Below are positions 13,090 through 49,452 of a stretch of 64,000 nt of DNA, piece by piece. Source of the stretch: Octopus vulgaris (taxonomy: Eukaryota). The notes beneath the pieces were generated by a model. The model was not told the DNA's origin, made no database searches, and was given only the letters and a program-made list of their open reading frames with translations. A program made the position numbers and the translations under genes. The DNA is taken from NCBI GenBank assembly GCA_951406725.2, contig OX597817.1:145700001-145764000 (forward strand), given 5' to 3'. Numbering within the stretch: position 1 is the stretch's first letter; the number at the start of each line of letters is the position of its first letter.

Positions 13090-13102
13090 TTTTGGAAGAC
13101 AT
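13090..13102 (-). CDS. LIN37: LIN37 putative first coding exon (MSSK)
   Basis: Minus strand reads AAA ATG TCT TCC AAA A|gtaatt. Phase 1 joins exon 2 in frame. It lies in a CpG-richer region next to CCAAT and YY1-like motifs. The exon is short, so assignment rests on phase and context. Confidence 0.65.
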
Positions 13103-22123: not shown

Positions 22124-22660
22124 TGTAACGGGAACGAGTAGCTTCATGCACTTTTAGAGTGCATGTGGTGCATACAAATCACCGTTGCTTTAATATCCAG
22201 ATTCTACCAGTCAAAGAAACACAAAACGCAGACGTAAAAAATATATATACTTTATTGTCTTATAACGGTAAGAAATGAGTGGTATATCTGGTTCCGCTTG
22301 GTATGGATGTGTCAGAGCTGAACTTTATCGCTTGTAAGATTTTACAATGTTCAAATGCTAACGACACTGGTCAAAATGGCGTCCAGAGAGAGAAAATGAT
22401 GTGGTCTGCAACAAATCCTGGTTAAAAGTCTTCTGCCGACTGCTGCTATGTTAAATCCGGCGAGAGAGAGAACTACACGTCTGTTGCCTTCAATCGCTGT
22501 GTCTCAAGTCAGCCCACTGCTGCTATGTCTCTCTGGACCCTTTTAAGGTTCACGCTCCCTTGCCTCGGCTAACTTCCACGTCAGCAAAATTCCCTCTTCC
22601 GGACTTCACGTATGCGCGAGAGGGCGCTGCGCGCACGCGCTGCCGGACAGCGTCACTACA
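22124..22660 (-). mobile_element. Solo LTR (Gypsy-like)
   Basis: TGTA...TACA termini, 4-bp CATA duplication on both sides (within a CATA microsatellite), AATAAA on the minus strand near 22251-22256, CpG-rich. Confidence 0.7.
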
Positions 22661-22745
22661 CATACATATATATAGATAGTGAAGCAAGTGCTAATGCTTT
22701 TAATGTGGCAAGCTTTTAATGTATCAAGACTGTATTTGTATCGAT

Positions 22746-30903: not shown

Positions 30904-32599
30904 AGAGTCCCATTGTAATTTTTCAGTTTTAATTTTCTTTTGAAAATTATTGTCAGATTTTTGTTTCAAACAGCTGAGATAATGATTCTTTAAAAATATG
31001 CATAATATAAATCTGAAAAATTTTTCAAAAATACATCAAATCTGAAAACAATGCTTAAAATAACTACAGCCAAAGAAATTACAGATGTTGACATGCTTTA
31101 CAATTTCTGACTCTATACTAAACACACGCCAAGCATTATTTTGACGATAGTGGTAGGACATACACACACACACACACTCACGACAGGCTTCTCTCAGTTT
31201 CCACCTACTAAATCCACTCATAAAGCTTTGGTCAAGCCAAGGCTATATAGTAGAAGATATTAGCCCAAAGTGTCATGCAGTGGGACTGAACCTAGAACTA
31301 CCAGGTTGTTTGGGGTGACAAAGCAGGTGCTTTACGTTCTGAGTTTAAATTCCGCCGAGGTCGACTTTGCCTTTCATCCTTTCGGGGTCGATAAATAAAG
31401 TACCAGTTACGCACTGGGGTCGATATAATCGACTTAATCCGTTTGTCTGTCCTTGTTTGTCCCCTCTATGTTTAGCCTCTTGTGGGCAATAAAGAAATAA
31501 GAATCATTAGCACACCGGGCGAAATGTTTAGCGACATTTCGTCCGTCTTTACGTTCTGAGTTCAAATTCCGTCGGGAGATTGACTTTGCCTTTCATCTGT
31601 TCAGGATCGATAATATAAGTACCAGTTGAGCACTGGGTTGATGTAATCGACTTGCCCCTTTCCCCGAAATTACTCTGAACAAAAATTTGAAACTAATTTA
31701 AAGAATGTGTGTTTGTGTGTGAACAAAAATATTTATTAACGAAGTTACAAAATGAAAATAGTTAATAATTAAAATATGCTAATTTTCTTGCAACTTGGGG
31801 ACATGAAATGAGTCAAGACCTGTGAATAAACGAAAAGACTTGATAACGAAAAGTTTGTTTACTTAATTATTATGGCATTATAAGAGGATTTAACAGGACA
31901 ATGTTGTCCTCAATAAACTAGAATAAGGCAGGGAGCTGGCTGAATCGTTAGCATGCCTAGCGATATTTATTCTGACTTTGCCTTCTGAGTTCAAATTCTA
32001 CCGAGGTCAATTTTGCTTTTCAACCTTTCGGGGGGTCGATAAAATAAGTACCAGTTGAGCACTGGAGTCGATGTAATCGACTTGTCCCGCCCCCAAAACT
32101 TCAAGCCTTGTGCCTATAGCAGAAAAGAAAAGAAAAGAAAAAAAGCTTCGGCTAAAAGGGCGGGATGATCGCGACTGGAATGCTTTTGAATATACGTCAT
32201 CAGCATGTTCCACCGAACTAAGAAATATAGATAAAAAATATAAAAATATCTATATTTCAATTTTTAACTCCCATAAATCGAATCTTATGGTTGTTGAATT
32301 CAATATACTGCGATATATTTATTCTTTATCAAATATTACCTTTACACGAGCAGGGAATGACATTTTTGGCGCTCTCATCTTATACTATAAGTCTATTATC
32401 TTATTGTAAGCAACAGGAAGTTTTGTACTCCTGCACACCTGAATCCAAGGATAACTACCTTTCTCGTTCCCACCCCCACTACATTTTCGTTTTTGAAAAT
32501 CCCACGCCCCGTATCCTAAATTAATTTCCCTCTCCTTGAAAATCCCAGGTTTCAATGATGTCCTCAGTAACAAATAGGAAGCTGTTACATTCTTTGAAG

Positions 32600-33371
32600 A
32601 TATTGTTCCAGCACGTTACGATCAACTCTATCACGTTTCTGATGCTGCTATCACGTTCCCATTAACCCTATCACGTTGCTTCGCAGATGAAAATTTGGTT
32701 GTTCACTGAAGCATTCTAAAGAAACCTAGCATGAGCGGAGCTGTTTCTATCAAACTCAAAATCTATTTGCAATGTTTTTTTTTTTTTTAATATTTACACT
32801 TGTATTATTACTAGTATGTATTACATAATTGCCTGTTGGCATCTATGTAATCACAGTGTAATGGTTTCCAATATTCGCAGCAAAACATTTTACATATAAA
32901 TAAATAGATAAGTTGAAATATAAAAAGAAACTAACATAAAATAAATGAAAGATATAAATATAAATAAAAAACTAACAAAAATGCAATAGTAAAATGTATG
33001 AAATAAGTAAAAATAAAATATATAAAGAAACTCAATAAAATAAAATAAAAATAAAATTTAAATTTAAATACAATAAAAATAAAATAAATACAATAAATAG
33101 AACAGATAAACAACATAAATAAAAGCAATTAGATAAGAAATATACACAAAGGAAAGAAAATAAATAAAAATTCAGTAAAATAAAATAATAAAAATTAAAA
33201 AAAATTACAATTAAATCAAAGCGAACCGAAATATGCAAAGGGCAGTGACATACTAAGTAATATAATGAAGTTATCTCCCTTGAATTTATTGTTGTTATTT
33301 TTCACCCTCACGTTGCATGACAGATGATCAGGGGAACCTGTCAAGGTAGTAATTTAAATCAGCGTATTACC
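32600..33371 (+). promoter_or_regulatory. Putative cry promoter and first exon (E'-box array, D-box, A-rich tract, donor GTAAGT at 33372)
   Basis: CACGTT at 32612, 32632, 32652, 32672 and 33309; TTACATAA at 32821; CpG-retaining region; consensus donor on the + strand. The link to cry is inferred. Confidence 0.5.
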
Positions 33372-35533
33372 GTAAGTCATATTATTTCTTTTATACTAAT
33401 TATCCGTTTTCTTTCTAATATATATATATGTTTATAAAATACTTACGTTTTGAAGAATTTAAATGTCGTTGTCCAAAATATTATTTACAAACCTCTATGT
33501 TTTAATTAGAAAATTATTTTTTAAAACTTACACTTCCTTACATATGTTTTGTTACACTGAGATTTACTTGTTTTAGTAATTGTTTTGGTTTATATAAACC
33601 TCTATTATATTCAGAAATCGTGAATCTAGTCTAACTCGTTCGTTTATTAAATATAGTTGAGTTTTTTTCTTTCGCCCGAATAGATTTATTAGTGGTTATC
33701 CTTGTTTATCTAAAAGCCGTTTATATATATTTTCCCCCCTAGTTATCAACTTTCAAAACATTTGCCATTTTATGATTTAATTGTTTCATTTAAACGATAA
33801 AACAGTCATATTGATAACAATGGTTAAGGAAACGATCTTACTCTAACGGCATTACGAATCTTGAAATTTACAAAATATGTATTTGAATCTCTGTTTACGC
33901 AATAAGAGATGGACGATAATGAAGTTTATTAATACCTTGTAGCGTGTGTATGTGTTATATATTTTCCATTACGGAAAGATACACACACACACACACACTT
34001 GTGTGTGTGTTGTTTAGATCCAAATTAGATATGATGTTATGGTCATAGTTTATTATAATTGTTTAACCCTAAGTTAGCGGTGATCAAACATTCTGACAGT
34101 GACTATACATCATTTTAAGAGTTTACGGGATTACATTATATTATGTGTCCTTCCTTTGTTTTTCTTAAGACGGCAGCAGATTTCTTATGAGATCGATTTG
34201 GCTACTGTTTCTAACAGCTCGACCGCCCTCCCCCCGCTTTCCTAGACTTGTTGAATACCTCCAACTCACGTGTTGGACGAATATGTGCGATCCACTGATT
34301 CAAGGTTCCAAAATACAGTGTGCATGTGTTTGTTTATATGAAAGAAGGTGTAATAAGTCTATTAGTCCAATGTTTGACGGAGTTTGGGGATTGCTGTACT
34401 TCGAAATCCCATACTTCATTGAAGAGGGAAAGAGTAGCTTTTTTTTCCTTTCATCGTTTTTCTTGGAGTGGGGATGCCATCTTTGTTTTCAAATATATAA
34501 ATATACAACTTCGTTATGATTTTATTATAAATCCCTCTGTTATATGTACCTAAATCCAAAGATCGATAAAATATCTTTTCTCCTAAATTTCTTTTCTTTA
34601 CATTTTTGCCCGCCTCTTCCGTACTCTTCTATTCCCATAAGGTGTGAGTGGACACCAAGAGACAATTATTCCTAAATTCCTCCTAGTTTTTTTAAACTAC
34701 CAAAAAAGTCCCTAATCGTACGTAATTTGACATCTAGATTCCATACGGTTATGATTCCATATATCTCGGTATTCAGGGCCGACACATTTGGTGGTACCGT
34801 AAGTATTAGTTAATCCCTAATGGTGCTGTTAATCTCCGTATTTTAGCATTCTGTGATTATTTCTCATGTTCAAAGAATAAACGCAAGTTACCAAGGATAC
34901 ATACACGCATATTATATTTTATATGTATGTGTGAGCGTGCGCTCATGCTGTCATATATACACAGATATATGTGCGCGCACGTCTCTGTGCGTGTATCGTT
35001 TGCTTTTTACTTGCTTCACTAATGTACTGCGACCGTGCTGGGGTATCATCTTGGAGGATTTAGTCGAAGAGATCGCCCCCTTCTAGTGCTTCTTTTATTA
35101 AACCTGGCAACTTAATCTATTGGCTTCTTTTGTCGAACCGCTAAATTACGGGGACGTAAACAAACCAATGCCAAGTATCAAGCGGTAGGACTGAACCCAA
35201 GGCCATGTCGTTGGGAAGCAAACTTCTCAACCACATAACCACGCCTGCACCTATTTTGGTATCCCTTCGATATAACTCGACAAAATCAAATCATTTCACT
35301 TCGGGTATTTTCCGTGGGTTGTGGAGTTATGCCAGCAGTGTCTCATTTTAAACTTGAAGAAAAAAAAAGCCTTGCATATTTGTTTTTACCTGTTTCATGT
35401 GTGGATGTAAAATCCGCAAATTTCCAAGCAGAAAACAGAATCGAACTGTCATTTGCTTCCACGGAAATGCCCGAAGTGAAATGTTTTGATTTTGTCGAGT
35501 TGTATCGAAAGAATGCCCCTATTTTTAACGGAA

Positions 35534-35580
35534 ACCCTCTGTGAGGATCGAACTCATGGCCCCTGGTTTACAAGGCCAGT
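35534..35580 (-). pseudogene. Truncated tRNA-Thr(TGT)-like fragment
   Basis: Minus strand ACTGGCCTTGTAAACCAGGGGCCATGAGTTCGATCCTCA has an anticodon arm with TGT and a GTTCGA T-loop. The 5' half is missing. Confidence 0.65.
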
Positions 35581-36364
35581 ATATAAATGAACCGATATGT
35601 TTCATGTAAATATTTTCGGTCCCCAAAGGTATTTTTAGCGTGTCAGTTTACTTGCTACTTTCAGAAAGAATTCCAATACAAATAACAAAATACACACGCT
35701 ATGAAAACACAATTTGGTAAATGGTAGGTTTGCAGATAATCCCCTTGTTTATTGTCCGTGAACTGGTGACTCCGTAAAATGTTGTTTACTATCACTGACA
35801 CATTCTCATCCCTTCTGTCTGCTTGTTGCTTTCTCGTTCTCTCTCTCTCTTTCTCCCTCTCTCAAATCACACTTTTTATCACTATTTGTATCTCTGTCTA
35901 CTCGACTGGCATCTTGTCTGTCCATATCTATCCTGTTTTGCTATCTATTCATCTGTCCGACGATCTATATTTCTGTGTCTCTTTATCCATATGTCTACGT
36001 ATCTCTCTATCTAATCTATTTATCTACCTACCCACCCACCCTCTCTATAGACTTCCAGCCATCTGCAGCCCTTTTCTTCTTATTATTTTAATTTTTTTTT
36101 GCAAACCATTCTAGATCCAAACAGCATGATTGTGAATCAGTAGATAAACCATGGTATTAACCAGTAAATGCTTGTAAATCAATCATTTATTTCTCTTTAG
36201 GATTCAGTTTAGAAAATTGGTTTAAGATCCACATTAACCCTTTTGAAACCAGCCTGGTTCTATGATATAAACTTTCTGTTTTAAAGTAATCTTTATTAAA
36301 ATTTTCTATCAAAATTTCAAGTTAATTTTTTTTCCAAACACCAGCTATTTTACTAAATTCCTCA

Positions 36365-36762
36365 TCTCTATATATAAACGGCAGTTTGTCTGTCTGTGTG
36401 GCTGTCAGGTTGTACCCTCACCCTGACCACGGCTTTCAACCAATTCTGATGAAACTTGACACACACATAGCCCAATGTCATAATTCAAAACTAACGCAGC
36501 GAAAATTTTGAAAAGTTCCCCCAGTTCTGAAAAAAGTCGATAAATTCGACATGGGGTCGAGAATCTAAGCTTTTTTTATGCAACACGTTTTCTGTCGGGA
36601 GACAGCTAGGAACATCGTATACATAGAAGTATTCGAGTGAAGAGAAGACATAGCAATCTACACATGCGCCTTCGTTCCCTAGAGGGAAAGAACTAGATTG
36701 GGATTAGTCGTTGCCTACTAGGGGCTCTTACATACCCGGGCAACGCCGGGCTATGCTGCTAG
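36365..36762 (+). mobile_element. Non-autonomous Helitron
   Basis: A|TC 5' end, subterminal hairpin CCCGG-GCAACG-CCGGG, CTAG|T 3' end, no TSD. Inserted into a piggyBac-like MITE. Confidence 0.8.
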
Positions 36763-37514
36763 TTATTTTCTAAATTAACTGTAAGAAAGACATTGTATTT
36801 CAACAGAAATATGATAACAAAATTGGGTCTTATCAATTTATTAGCTGGGCCTGTGCTGTCAAAAATGACGGCTAATTGTAATATTTACCATATATTTCTT
36901 TACTACACACAAGGAGCTAAACACAGAAGGGACAAACAAGGACAGACATAGGTATTACGTCGATTATATCGACCCCAGTGCGTAACTAGTACTTAATTTA
37001 TCGACCCCGAAAGGATGAAAGGCAAAGTTGACCTCGGCGGAATTTGAACTCAGAACGTAGCGACAGACGAAAGTACTGAGTATTTCGCCCGGCGTGCTAA
37101 CGTTTGTGCCAGCTCGCCAATAATTATATATGGATTGTAAATCAAATTAATACACTTGTCAATGTTATCTAGTGGAGATGTGACATTGACCATCGTTTGT
37201 TACTGAAAGAACGTTAGTTCACACATACAAACATACACACACACATTTACCCACACAGAGTTGAAACAATGATTTTTCTTTTCAGCATTGAATGATCATC
37301 GCTCTTCCATTGCGCACACACCTCTCTTTTACATACGCGCACACATACTCACACAGAGTTGAAACCCTCCCACTACCAAGTTTGCGATCACCCCTTCCTT
37401 TCTCATTCATATGTGACGGAGAAAAACAGAGTATTAACATAGTAGATTATTTCTTAACTCTTAAAGAGGAAGAATTCTAAACTTTCTGATCTGGTTTTGT
37501 TGTCAATGTTATAT

Positions 37515-37892
37515 AGTGGAGGCGCAATGGCCCAGTGGTAAGGGCAGCGGACTCACGGTTGTAGGATCGCGGTTTCGATTCCTAGACCGGGCGTTGTGAG
37601 TGTTTATTGAGCGAAAGCACCTAAAGCTCCACGAAGCTCCGGCAGGATGTGGTGGCGAACCCTGCTGTACTCTTTCACCACAACTTTCTCTCACTCTTTC
37701 TTTCAGTTTCTGCTGTACCTGTATTTGAAAGGGCCAGCCTTGTCACACTCTGTGTCACGCTGAATCTCCCCGAGAACTACGTTAAGGGTACGCGTGTCTG
37801 TGGAATGCTCAGCTACTTGCACGTTAATTTCTCGTTCCGTTGATCGGATCAACTGGAACCTTCGTCGTCGTAACTGACGGAGTACCAACAAC
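37515..37892 (+). mobile_element. tRNA-Arg-like SINE family 3 (representative copy)
   Basis: Head TGGCCCAGTGGTAAGGGCAGCGGACTCACG...GTTTCGATTCC. Relatives at ~16610 and 26851 (+), and 17634, 18195 and 54037 (-). Confidence 0.8.
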
Positions 37893-38495
37893 AATATGTA
37901 GAATAGCCCAGAAGTATCATTAGAGATTGTATTAGTAGCATCTTAATTGCTGTTCCCTTGATAATATGTGATGTGATTTAGTCTTTATATTGTTGAATGA
38001 GATGAGTTTGTCTGTCAAGTCCTTATTTGTGGATTCAGTGTGTTCAAGGTGAAGTGTTTAGGATAAGAAATATTAAGGAGTAAAGTGTTAAGATATGGAT
38101 AGAAGTGTGTTTTGCAGAGGCGTGGTAGCAAGGTCTTTAACGTACAGAAGCAAGTGTGTGGGAAATGTTGCTAAATGGATCAGAGTAATGAGAAATATAT
38201 AAAGATAATAGGTGGGAAAATTAGCTACAAGGTTATCAAGCCAAACAGGTTTTGACACTTAGCTAATGTTAAGTGATTTTGCTCAAAGACTGACAGACCA
38301 TATAAATGTGCATTTACATGCATATGCTTATATACACATGCATGCATATATGTATGCATATGTACATATATCATCATTTTTCTAGCTGTTGCTAGGATAG
38401 TTTTTCACCTCCCTTTGATACATATATATATAATTTATATTAATGTTTTTTTAATAACTACTTGTATTCTTATCTCAAATGTATTGAATTTTATA

Positions 38496-38689: not shown

Positions 38690-38750
38690 ATAAGAGTAGA
38701 TCGTATACGAGTGGGTATATATTTGTAAAAAAGAAGTTTGAAAATGCCAC

Positions 38751-39131
38751 TATATTAGATAAATTTTAATTTTACATGTTTCGGTTCTATATTAGATAAA
38801 TTTTAATTTTACATGTTTCGGTTCTATATTAGATAAATTTTAATTTTACATGTTTCGGTTCTATATTAGATAAATTTTAATTTTACATGTTTCGGTTCTA
38901 TATTAGATAAATTTTAATTTTACATGTTTCGGTTCTATATTAGATAAATTTTAATTTTACATGTTTCGGTTCTATATTAGATAAATTTTAATTTTACATG
39001 TTTCGGTTCTATATTAGATAAATTTTAATTTTACATGTTTCGGTTCTATATTAGATAAATTTTAATTTTACATGTTTCGGTTCTATATTAGATAAATTTT
39101 AATTTTACATGTTTCGGTTCTATATTAGATA

Positions 39132-39137
<6 letters not shown>
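38751..39137. repeat. Perfect 37-bp tandem repeat, 10 full copies plus 17 nt
   Basis: Unit TATATTAGATAAATTTTAATTTTACATGTTTCGGTTC, followed by a long (TA)n run. Confidence 0.97.
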
Positions 39138-39222
<85 letters not shown>

Positions 39223-47742: not shown

Positions 47743-47820
47743 ATCCATAGAATCAGCTAATTTAATTTTCAACTTGTTTTTATTCAGTATGTTTATTTGC
47801 TTTTATATTTCAGATCAATA

Positions 47821-49452
47821 ATGTCAATGAATGACTGCAATGGCGTGATGAAACACGAAAAGAAACAAAAGATAGCTGTTCATTGGTTCAGGCATGGGCA
47901 ACGTCTTCATGATAATCCTGCTCTTGTGAATGCCCTGAAAGACTGTGACGAATTCTATCCAGTCTTTATCTTTGATGGAGAAGTTGCTGGTACAAAACTG
48001 TGTGGTTTTAATAGATGGCGATTTCTATTAGAAAATCTGAAAGATCTGGACGAATCATTTGCTGAATATGGTGGAAGGCTCTATACTTTCCAAGGCGACC
48101 CTGTTGATGTTTTTAAGAATCTTCAGAAAGAATGGGGTATTACTCATATCACAGCTGAAATCGATCCTGAACCAATATGGCTGGAAAGGGATGATGCTGT
48201 GAAAAAATTTTGTCAGAAATCAGGTATCGAGTGTGATTTTTTCACTTCTCATACTCTGTGGGATCCACAACTTTTACTGAAAAAGAATGGAGGGACACCT
48301 CCATTGACCTTTGAATTATTTCAGCTTGTTACTTCTTCTCTTGGACCACCCCTTCGCCCACTTGATACACCAAATTTTGAAGGAGTTAAAATGCCACTAC
48401 CAGAAAACCACGATAAATTTGCTGTACCAACATTAAAATCACTTGGTATTCATCCTGAGTTTGAAGAACAGAAAAACCCCATCAACGTTTTTATTGGTGG
48501 TGAAAAACGTGCTCTTGTACTACTTAAAGCACGTTTAGAGAAAGAAGCCCAAAGTTTCCGCCACGGTCAATGCTTACCAAACCATCAAGAGCAACCGGAA
48601 CTGCTGGCCAGAGCTGTCAGTTTAAGTCCTTATCTCCGCTTTGGCTGCGTATCAATCCGTAAAACTTATTGGGATATATGTGATACTTATAAAAAGATCA
48701 AGAATGTCGAGGCTCCAAATGAGATTGTTTGCCAACTTTATTGGAGAGAGTATTTCTATATTATGTCTATTGATAACATCAATTTTGATAAAATTGAGAA
48801 CAACCCTTATTGTCTGAAAATCAACTGGCAATATAATGAGGAGTTTTTGAAGAAATGGGAATTAGGACAAACTGGTTACCCATGGATTGATGCAATCATG
48901 AATCAGTTACGCTTTGAAGGCTGGAATCACCATGTTGGTCGTCATGCAGTGTCTTGTTTCTTGACAAGAGGTGATCTTTGGGTGAGTTGGGAAGATGGTT
49001 TGAATACTTTTCTGAAATACCAGTTGGATGCAGATTGGTCAGTTTGTGCTGGAAATTGGATGTGGGTGTCCAGTTCAGCTTTTGAGAAAGCTCTTCAGTG
49101 TCCTACCTGCTACTCTCCTGTTATGTATGGTATGCGGATGGACAGAAATGGAGATTTTGTGAAAACCTACGTTCCCGTCTTAAAAGACATGCCACTTAAA
49201 TACTTATTCTGTCCCTGGAAAGCACCTTTGGAAATTCAAGAGAAAGCTAATTGTATTATTGGCAAAGATTACCCTGAACCAATCGTCATGCATCGTGATG
49301 CTTCCAAACAAAACATGGCCAAGATGTATAAAGTAAAAGAACATTTGTTACACCAAGACGTACCTCATTGTGGTCCAACCAATGAAACAGAAGTTTGGAA
49401 ATTTGCCTGGCTCCCACCAATTGAACACCACGATCTGGCCCACAATATTTAG
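47821..49452 (+). CDS. cry1: Cryptochrome, light-sensitive Drosophila-type (type 1 / L-CRY), 543 aa, single coding exon
   Basis: Motifs HWFRHGQRLHDNPAL, FIFDGEVAGTK, EPIW..RD, SHTLWDP, LSPYLRFGC, GWNHH, DADWSVCAGNWMWVSSSAFE (Cys as dCRY C416) and tail PHCGPTNETEVWKFAWL (dCRY PHCRPSNEEEVRQFFWL). Splice acceptor tttcag ends at 47813. Confidence 0.96.
   Translation: MSMNDCNGVMKHEKKQKIAVHWFRHGQRLHDNPALVNALKDCDEFYPVFIFDGEVAGTKLCGFNRWRFLLENLKDLDESFAEYGGRLYTFQGDPVDVFKNLQKEWGITHITAEIDPEPIWLERDDAVKKFCQKSGIECDFFTSHTLWDPQLLLKKNGGTPPLTFELFQLVTSSLGPPLRPLDTPNFEGVKMPLPENHDKFAVPTLKSLGIHPEFEEQKNPINVFIGGEKRALVLLKARLEKEAQSFRHGQCLPNHQEQPELLARAVSLSPYLRFGCVSIRKTYWDICDTYKKIKNVEAPNEIVCQLYWREYFYIMSIDNINFDKIENNPYCLKINWQYNEEFLKKWELGQTGYPWIDAIMNQLRFEGWNHHVGRHAVSCFLTRGDLWVSWEDGLNTFLKYQLDADWSVCAGNWMWVSSSAFEKALQCPTCYSPVMYGMRMDRNGDFVKTYVPVLKDMPLKYLFCPWKAPLEIQEKANCIIGKDYPEPIVMHRDASKQNMAKMYKVKEHLLHQDVPHCGPTNETEVWKFAWLPPIEHHDLAHNI

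What the first reader, a model, noticed from the sequence alone, without database searches (positions are those of the whole stretch)
32612..32677. Four E'-boxes (CACGTT) at an exact 20-bp period with different spacers
Seen in sequence: CACGTT starts at 32612, 32632, 32652 and 32672. The last three share CTATCACGTT, while the intervening bases differ (ACGATCAACT, TCTGATGCTG, CCCATTAACC). Conserved motif and spacing with diverged spacers is not what a recent tandem duplication looks like. Established: CACGTT is the non-canonical CLOCK:BMAL1 site in mammalian Per2/Cry1 promoters, and 20 bp is about two helical turns. Inference: a phased circadian enhancer for the downstream cry, notable because Drosophila cry is not regarded as a direct CLK/CYC-activated gene.
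Basis: partly seen in the sequence, partly recalled or inferred. Interest (0 to 1): 0.75.

Follow-up and report, generated by a model that had tools for sequence, protein, structure and literature searches.

The report
Clock-box array upstream of octopus cry1
Four evenly spaced copies of a short DNA motif known from clock genes sit about 700 bases before a predicted upstream exon of the octopus light-sensor gene cry1 and likely let the clock proteins CLOCK and BMAL1 drive it daily, a familiar kind of control that is untested here.

Summary
The array is real: CACGTT at 32612/32/52/72, single-copy in the genome, not part of a dispersed repeat, and far beyond chance. It is best read as an old tandem duplication of a 20-bp unit whose core (CTATCACGTT) was kept while the spacers drifted. 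It is not a remote enhancer 15 kb from the gene. A public gene model splices an exon ending at 33371 onto the intronless cry1 (light-receptive type) coding exon, so the array lies about 690 bp before that donor. A fifth E'-box, a D-box and a canonical E-box are nearby. Four of five sites have the T-flanked form TCACGTT. CLOCK and BMAL1 with conserved basic regions exist in the genome, and per and cry2 carry similar sites. The 'two helical turns' reading is not supported: published cooperative spacers are 6-8 and 16-17 bp, not 14. Only the last unit and the fifth site fit the 6-bp EE geometry. Conservation is shown only in very close relatives, the TSS is unmapped, and binding and rhythm are untested. 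An E-box near oyster cry1 is already published. Verdict: a likely CLOCK:BMAL1 E'-box cluster, new member of a known kind.

The parts
32608..32677 (+). Four 20-bp units, each with CACGTT (32612, 32632, 32652, 32672); units 2-4 have CTATCACGTT (reverse strand AACGTGATAG, which also contains a WGATAR match)
32672..32689 (+). EE-like element 1: CACGTT + 6 bp + CAGATG (last unit of the array)
   Evidence: criteria from PMC2254435
33309..33326 (+). Fifth E'-box and EE-like element 2: TCACGTTGC-N4-CAGATG, a look-alike of the last array unit, 45 bp before the donor
32821..32850 (.). D-box match TTACATAA (32821-32828) and a looser CTATGTAA (32843-32850)
   Evidence: motif scan; background 0.075 per kb, about 4% chance of one within 300 bp, post hoc; consensus recalled
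32415..32509 (+). Ets-like AGGAAGT (32415) and KLF/Sp-like CCACGCCC (32502) matches upstream of the array
   Evidence: motif scan; consensus names recalled; matches only
33363..33377 (+). 3' end of an upstream cry1 exon (33363-33371 in the public model) and its donor GTAAGT (33372-33377)
   Evidence: N-terminus of P0242 maps uniquely here between AG and GT
34266..34272 (.). Canonical T-flanked E-box TCACGTG in the intron
31000..38000 (.). CpG-retaining region (o/e 0.7-1.4 against 0.44 for the window) around the array and the upstream exon
   Evidence: weak as a promoter mark, since 52% of arbitrary 2-kb bins of this genome also reach 0.7
47812..49452 (+). cry1: acceptor AG 47812-47813, single coding exon from 47814, ATG 47821, 543 aa light-receptive (Drosophila-type, L-Cry) cryptochrome

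Best explanation
The array is an old tandem duplication of a 20-bp unit about 690 bp before a predicted 5' exon of cry1, and it likely acts as a multi-site E'-box cluster through which CLOCK:BMAL1 would activate cry1 with a daily rhythm. Shown: the array, its single-copy status, the selective retention of the core, the identity of cry1, and the presence of CLOCK and BMAL1 with conserved basic regions. Taken from a public gene model and not re-derived from reads: the splice from 33371 to the coding exon. Inferred: that the core was kept by selection, that CLOCK:BMAL1 is the binder, and that the output is rhythmic transcription. The four sites probably add up as independent weak sites. Only the last unit and the site at 33309 have the 6-bp EE geometry that would allow cooperative double binding. 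The adjacent D-box would add a PDP1/VRI or light input.
For: Core kept, spacers near random. CTATCACGTT-N10-CTATCACGTT occurs exactly only here: 2 of 2 exact matches, 4 matches with one mismatch allowed. The 521-bp region has 1 match in the genome. Public protein P0242 requires the exon end at 33371 joined to 47814. No Pfam hit above its curated cut-off in 146 of the 154 ORFs listed between lin37 and the array, 2 weak hits only; lin37 has its own start at 13102. 4 of 5 E'-boxes are TCACGTT against 26 of 81 in background; flanking T's are informative in the E1-E2 model (PMC2242825) and AACGTGA is cited as a preferred CLOCK:BMAL1 7-mer (PMC6802832, one passage). CACGTTGC-N4-CAGATG has 6 matches in 2.8 Gb, 2 of them here. 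Octopus BMAL1 and CLOCK bHLH regions align to PDB 4H10 with the basic residues kept. cry2 has GTCACGTT and GTCACGTG 19 bp apart about 680 bp before its ATG, and the likely per 5' region has GTCACGTT plus 6 CACGTG in 14 kb, P = 0.02. No listed difference falls in the array in contigs of organisms C and D, while C lacks about 18 bp just downstream. CACGTT is the essential site of a mussel per enhancer. Squid escry1 cycles in the head (PMC3622930).
Against: The spacer of 14 bp is not a published cooperative spacing. No canonical CACGTG lies in the array. By the loose EE criteria 19% of background sites qualify, so 2 of 5 is not significant (P = 0.25), and the two look-alike elements may share ancestry. 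The conservation test is weak: organisms C and D are about 98-99% identical, zero differences in 70 bp has P = 0.10-0.27, the flank contrast ranges from P = 0.02 to 0.54 with the cut chosen, and 1 of D's 11 differences was not displayed. 5 loci in the genome have 3 TCACGTT at a 20-bp pitch, so such arrays also arise in plain repeats. The TSS is unmapped, and the public long model starts in a solo LTR and uses a 9-nt exon, so it may be partly a prediction artefact. Platynereis L-cry does not cycle clearly (PMC3913041) and Drosophila cry is run by VRI/PDP1 (PMC6143808). ARNT has a similar basic region and HIF-alpha and ARNT are present.
Confidence: 0.55

Rival explanations
1. The array is a functional site cluster for another factor: an ARNT-containing bHLH-PAS dimer (HIF, SIM; core ACGTG), a USF/MiT/CWO-type bHLH, or a GATA factor reading the overlapping TGATAG, giving hypoxia, tissue-specific or constitutive control of cry1.
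For: Each unit contains ACGTG on the - strand and units 2-4 contain TGATAG. The conserved block (10 bp) is longer than an E'-box needs. HIF-alpha and ARNT exons exist in the genome. The 14-bp spacer does not match CLOCK:BMAL1 cooperativity.
Against: The target is a clock photoreceptor gene, and per and cry2 show the same T-flanked E/E' signature. The preferred HIF site is TACGTG and preferred GATA sites end in AA (recalled). Unit 1 lacks the GATA match but keeps CACGTT.
Confidence: 0.22
2. The array is a neutral, decayed minisatellite that happens to contain CACGTT; the exact period is only a trace of duplication.
For: TRF detects it as a period-20 repeat. Units 1 and 3 share 14 of 20 bases. 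Four other loci carry 3 TCACGTT at a 20-bp pitch, and the one examined (C12) is a decayed AT-rich repeat. Cross-species data do not exclude neutrality.
Against: Uniform decay does not produce an intact core with saturated spacers. It is the only four-copy case at 20-bp pitch among the 100 of 192 matches listed. It sits within 700 bp of a clock gene's 5' exon with a fifth look-alike site, a D-box and a canonical E-box.
Confidence: 0.15
3. The array is functional but serves another transcript, such as a non-coding RNA from the same CpG-retaining region or lin37 at a distance, and not cry1.
For: The TSS is unmapped, and the DNA at 24-31 kb is CpG-depleted as gene bodies are, which could mark an unannotated transcription unit.
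Against: lin37 has its own CpG-retaining start about 19.5 kb away. No coding gene was found in between. The nearest annotated exon end belongs to cry1.
Confidence: 0.08

Closest known systems
Mammalian EE / E1-E2 element (Per2 CACGTT-N6-TATGTG; PMC2254435, PMC3043000, PMC2242825)
   Same: CACGTT first site with 5' T; 32672 and 33309 have a second E-like site 6 bp away that meets the published mismatch limits.
   Different: The four-copy array itself has 14-bp spacers, all sites are non-canonical and in direct orientation, and no activity is shown.
Drosophila tim TER1/TER2 boxes (as described in PMC5499816 and PMC2254435; the original paper was not held)
   Same: Repeated non-canonical E-boxes close to a clock gene, said to carry most of the activity.
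   Different: TER1 pairs with a canonical E-box 7 bp away. The array has none, and the target is the photoreceptor cry, which in flies is VRI/PDP1-controlled.
Bathymodiolus per enhancer block 118 (10.1101/2025.10.08.681125)
   Same: Mollusc; the first CACGTT is essential for activation by molluscan CLOCK+BMAL.
   Different: Target is per; two CACGTT and one CACGTG over 86 nt, not periodic; conserved across mussel species and tested.
Oyster CgCry1 upstream E-box (PMC5224872)
   Same: E-box near the start of a molluscan light-receptive cry1 (-274 bp), with expression correlated to per and tim.
   Different: A single consensus match, not a fourfold periodic array; not functionally tested in the passages read.
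Drosophila CATAC element (PMC5499816)
   Same: Clock-gene promoter cassette with an E-box-like part and extra conserved bases beside it.
   Different: Its core TRCGCATACG does not match the unit's CTAT flank or spacers (compared by eye).

Membership tests
CLOCK:BMAL1 E'-box cluster | CACGTT core, preferably T-flanked (AACGTGA) | tested here: met
   4 of 4 cores; 3 of 4 in the array and 4 of 5 in the region are T-flanked, against 26 of 81 in background
CLOCK:BMAL1 E'-box cluster | Located in the 5' regulatory region of a clock gene | tested here: met
   About 690 bp before the donor that public model P0242 splices to cry1; rests on that model
CLOCK:BMAL1 E'-box cluster | Cognate factors present with conserved DNA-reading basic regions | tested here: met
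   BMAL1 and CLOCK bHLH and PAS-B exons match PDB 4H10/4F3L
CLOCK:BMAL1 E'-box cluster | Conservation across species | tested here: inconclusive
   No listed difference in organisms C and D, but these are about 98-99% identical; P = 0.10-0.27
CLOCK:BMAL1 E'-box cluster | Binding, transactivation, repression by CRY2/PER, rhythmic output | not testable with these tools
   Needs reporter, ChIP and time course
EE / E1-E2 tandem element | Second E-like site (up to 2 mismatches) at 6-7 bp: between the four array sites | tested here: not met
   Spacer is 14 bp; units 1-3 have no E2 at 6-7 bp
EE / E1-E2 tandem element | Second E-like site at 6-7 bp: 32672 and 33309 | tested here: met
   CAGATG at 6 bp in both; 19% of background sites meet the loose rule, 1 of 81 has CANNTG at exactly 6 bp
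EE / E1-E2 tandem element | Within 1 kb upstream of the TSS | tested here: inconclusive
   TSS not mapped; contigs cannot show starts
Dispersed repeat or satellite family | Related copies elsewhere in the genome | tested here: not met
   1 match for the 521-bp region; exact double unit only here
Light-receptive (Drosophila-type) cryptochrome, target gene | Closest to L-Cry/dCRY-type proteins, with a separate repressor-type cry2 in the genome | tested here: met
   Best PDB hit 8P4X light-receptive cryptochrome, E 1e-202; orthologues named cryptochrome-1; second cry gene on C15; no tree was built

The most novel reading that the evidence does not exclude
Octopus has wired its light-sensing cry1 directly into the CLOCK:BMAL1 loop through a purpose-kept fourfold E'-box array whose 20-bp pitch is itself functional, placing all four sites in one rotational setting on a nucleosome or supporting a cooperative geometry other than the 6-7 and 16-17 bp spacers known from mammals; the 19-bp site pair before cry2 would be a second instance of the same grammar.
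Probability: 0.12. Interest if true: 0.65.

Novelty: new member of a known kind. Interest (0 to 1): 0.38.

Why it matters
It gives a compact, testable candidate (about 70 bp, plus a D-box and two EE-like sites) for how a cephalopod clock controls its blue-light receptor. Animals differ here: fly cry is VRI/PDP1-driven, Platynereis L-cry does not cycle clearly, squid escry1 cycles and is light-inducible, oyster cry1 tracks per and tim. A positive reporter result would place octopus cry1 in the E-box phase group and supply a native reporter element for cephalopod clock work. The element type is well known, so the gain is comparative rather than mechanistic unless the 20-bp pitch proves to matter.

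Tried and rejected
RNA evidence for the TSS: no RNA holder listed on record. Two runs guessed to be RNA each gave one low-depth contig over the array (X15 32572-32796, depth 2.3; X17 32530-32680, depth 3.7). They may be DNA, intronic or promoter RNA and show neither start nor strand, and lack of cover further downstream proves nothing. The exon end at 33371 was not examined with reads, so the splice rests on the public model. A guessed TSS near 32925 (CCAAT 32868, TATAAAT 32895) or 33174 (TCAGT) could not be confirmed. My guess of an in-frame ATG at 33317 with a donor at 33346 was not borne out by the 7 cephalopod CRY1 sequences read. The four other CACGTTGC-N4-CAGATG loci and four other period-20 loci were fetched and showed no shared flanks or E-box/D-box modules; their nearest genes were not identified. 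timeless was not located (family search empty), so its promoter was not compared; vri, Pdp1 and cwo were not examined. The per 5' end is inferred from the CpG boundary only; Pfam confirmed PAS-B and C-terminal exons but not the first exon (81 of 90 ORFs scanned). The cry2 upstream E-box count (P = 0.002) is inflated by a local duplication and is not used. CpG retention as a promoter mark is weak genome-wide. Two look-ups in earlier findings returned nothing. Papers on the tim TER boxes, the Per2 E'-box and the CLOCK:BMAL1 bHLH-DNA structure were not held and are recalled or cited second-hand. The value for a 14-bp spacer in PMC3043000 Fig. 5C is in a figure that could not be seen. Supplements were not read (oyster E-box definition, mussel preprint alignments) and may bear on the comparisons.

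Full report
Observation. CACGTT starts at 32612, 32632, 32652 and 32672, and units 2-4 share CTATCACGTT. The window has 15 CACGTT against 13.7 expected, so only the clustering is unusual. None of 300 Markov simulations had three same-strand copies within 100 bp. In 400 kb of arbitrarily chosen genomic DNA there were 0 clusters of four and 2 of three E/E' sites. Apart from perfect or near-perfect tandem repeats, it is the only place in the window where a complex hexamer recurs four times at one period.

Origin. Tandem Repeats Finder reports the array as a period-20 repeat, and units 1 and 3 share 14 of 20 bases, so it most likely arose by an old duplication. The decay is uneven: 2 mismatches in the ten core columns and 19 in the ten spacer columns. 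Column permutation gives P = 0.003, and uniform decay never gave this pattern in 100,000 trials at each of three rates. The region is single-copy (1 match), and the exact double unit occurs only here. An exact period is not itself evidence of selection. Among all 41 matches of TCACGTT-N13-TCACGTT, 5 loci have three copies at 20 bp, and the other four look like plain or decayed repeats. Among the 100 of 192 matches listed for CACGTT-N14-CACGTT this is the only four-copy case; the other 92 were not seen.

Which gene. The window holds lin37 (- strand, start at 13102), a single-exon coding region for a 543-aa cryptochrome (47821-49452) and the 3' end of glycogen phosphorylase. The cryptochrome is closest to the light-receptive L-Cry structure 8P4X, and a separate cry2 lies on C15. 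The coding exon begins at a splice acceptor 7 bases before the ATG, so an upstream exon is expected. Public protein P0242, labelled Octopus vulgaris, has a 14-residue extension that maps to 22275-22300, then uniquely to 33363-33371 between AG and GTAAGT, then to 47814. The array is thus about 690 bp before a cry1 donor and is not a remote element. The first exon of that model lies in a solo LTR with many genomic relatives, and a 9-nt exon is odd, so the model's 5' part may be a prediction artefact. The TSS is unknown. No Pfam hit above cut-off was found in 146 of 154 ORFs between lin37 and the array.

Surrounding sites. A fifth CACGTT lies at 33309. It and the last array unit both read CACGTTGC-N4-CAGATG, a pattern with 6 matches in the genome. 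Both meet the published EE criteria (PMC2254435, passages). The loose criteria are met by 19% of background sites (P = 0.25 for 2 of 5), whereas CANNTG at exactly 6 bp is seen in 1 of 81 (post hoc). The two may be one duplicated module. A D-box match is at 32821 and a canonical TCACGTG at 34266. Four of five E'-boxes have a 5' T, against 32% in background. Flanking T's are part of the E1-E2 model (PMC2242825, passages), and AACGTGA is cited as a preferred CLOCK:BMAL1 7-mer (PMC6802832, one passage; primary paper recalled, not held).

The clock in this genome. BMAL1 (C7) and CLOCK (C16) have bHLH and PAS-B exons matching the solved structures, with the basic-region residues kept. ARNT and HIF-alpha are also present. 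cry2 has an inverted GTCACGTT and a GTCACGTG 19 bp apart about 680 bp before its ATG, and a D-box just before the ATG. At the CpG boundary taken as the per 5' end there is a GTCACGTT, with 6 CACGTG in the next 14 kb (P = 0.02). Neither 200-kb region has a periodic four-site array.

Conservation. Contigs of two other organism labels span the array. Organism C has 3 substitutions in 32245-33023, none in the array, and lacks about 18 bases at 32717-32743. Organism D has 11 substitutions in 32151-32736; the 10 shown lie outside the array, 8 of them upstream of 32400. At 32682, in the EE spacer, C, D and run X15 read G. These relatives are too close for a firm test: P = 0.10-0.27 for no change in 70 bp, and the flank contrast is P = 0.02-0.54 depending on the cut.

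Phasing. In mouse, CLOCK:BMAL1 pairs cooperate at spacers of 6-8 and 16-17 bp and lose activity at 4, 10 and 20 (PMC3043000, section 12 and passages); the EE element needs 6-7. The array's spacer is 14, one turn more than the poor 4-bp spacer (inference); the measured value at 14 is in a figure I could not see. The 'two helical turns' argument therefore has no published support in what I read. Additive binding to several weak sites, with cooperativity only at the two EE-like positions, is the simpler mechanism. Shared rotational setting on a nucleosome remains possible and untested.

What is known. A CACGTT is the essential site of a mussel per enhancer activated by molluscan CLOCK+BMAL (10.1101/2025.10.08.681125, passages). 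An E-box at -274 of oyster CgCry1 is published, and CgCry1 correlates with per and tim (PMC5224872, passages). Squid escry1 cycles in the head and is light-dependent in the light organ (PMC3622930, abstract and section 7). Platynereis L-cry lacks clear cycling (PMC3913041, passages), and fly cry is controlled through VRI/PDP1 boxes (PMC6143808, passages). CATAC does not match (PMC5499816, passages). PMC10733189 and PMC12049834 (passages) gave only gene-content background. Searches listed no paper on a cephalopod cry1 promoter; only listings were seen for most hits and subscription journals are largely missing.

Verdict. A real, selectively preserved E'-box cluster in the 5' region of octopus cry1, most likely a CLOCK:BMAL1 input (0.55), with other bHLH or GATA factors (0.22), neutral decay (0.15) and another target (0.08) as rivals. 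It is a new member of a known kind. Interest 0.38.

Noticed in passing
window 47814-49452: The whole cry1 coding region is one exon, whereas cry2 on C15 is split into at least 7 exon matches; intron loss or a retroposed origin in cephalopods is possible.
   Followed up: no
window 22124-22661: Solo LTR (TG...CA) of a family with 823 first-look candidates, often paired 2.1-2.5 kb apart; the public long cry1 model starts inside it, so it may be an alternative promoter or an artefact.
   Followed up: partly
window 33363-33371: 9-nt exon in the public model P0242, possibly the tail of a longer first exon.
   Followed up: partly
G000:C15:68368291-68368315 (L046): Candidate cry2 promoter pair AACGTGA / TCACGTG 19 bp apart, and a D-box match just before the ATG; an E'-N5-E pair occurs twice further upstream in a local duplication.
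   Followed up: partly
G000:C3:159371-159385 kb (L016-L017): Likely per 5' region: sharp CpG boundary and several CACGTG each within 40-260 bp of a D-box match.
   Followed up: partly
G000:C1:18971755-18971772 (L002): Exact 18-bp copy of the 33309 element with no shared flanks; nearest gene not identified.
   Followed up: partly
window 32890-33215: Strongly A-rich stretch on the + strand between the array and the upstream exon end; could be 5' UTR.
   Followed up: no
window 38750-39138: Perfect 37-bp tandem repeat, 10.5 copies, in the cry1 intron.
   Followed up: no
G000:C23:34760852-34761877: Satellite whose 111-121-bp unit carries three TCACGTT at 20-bp pitch.
   Followed up: no
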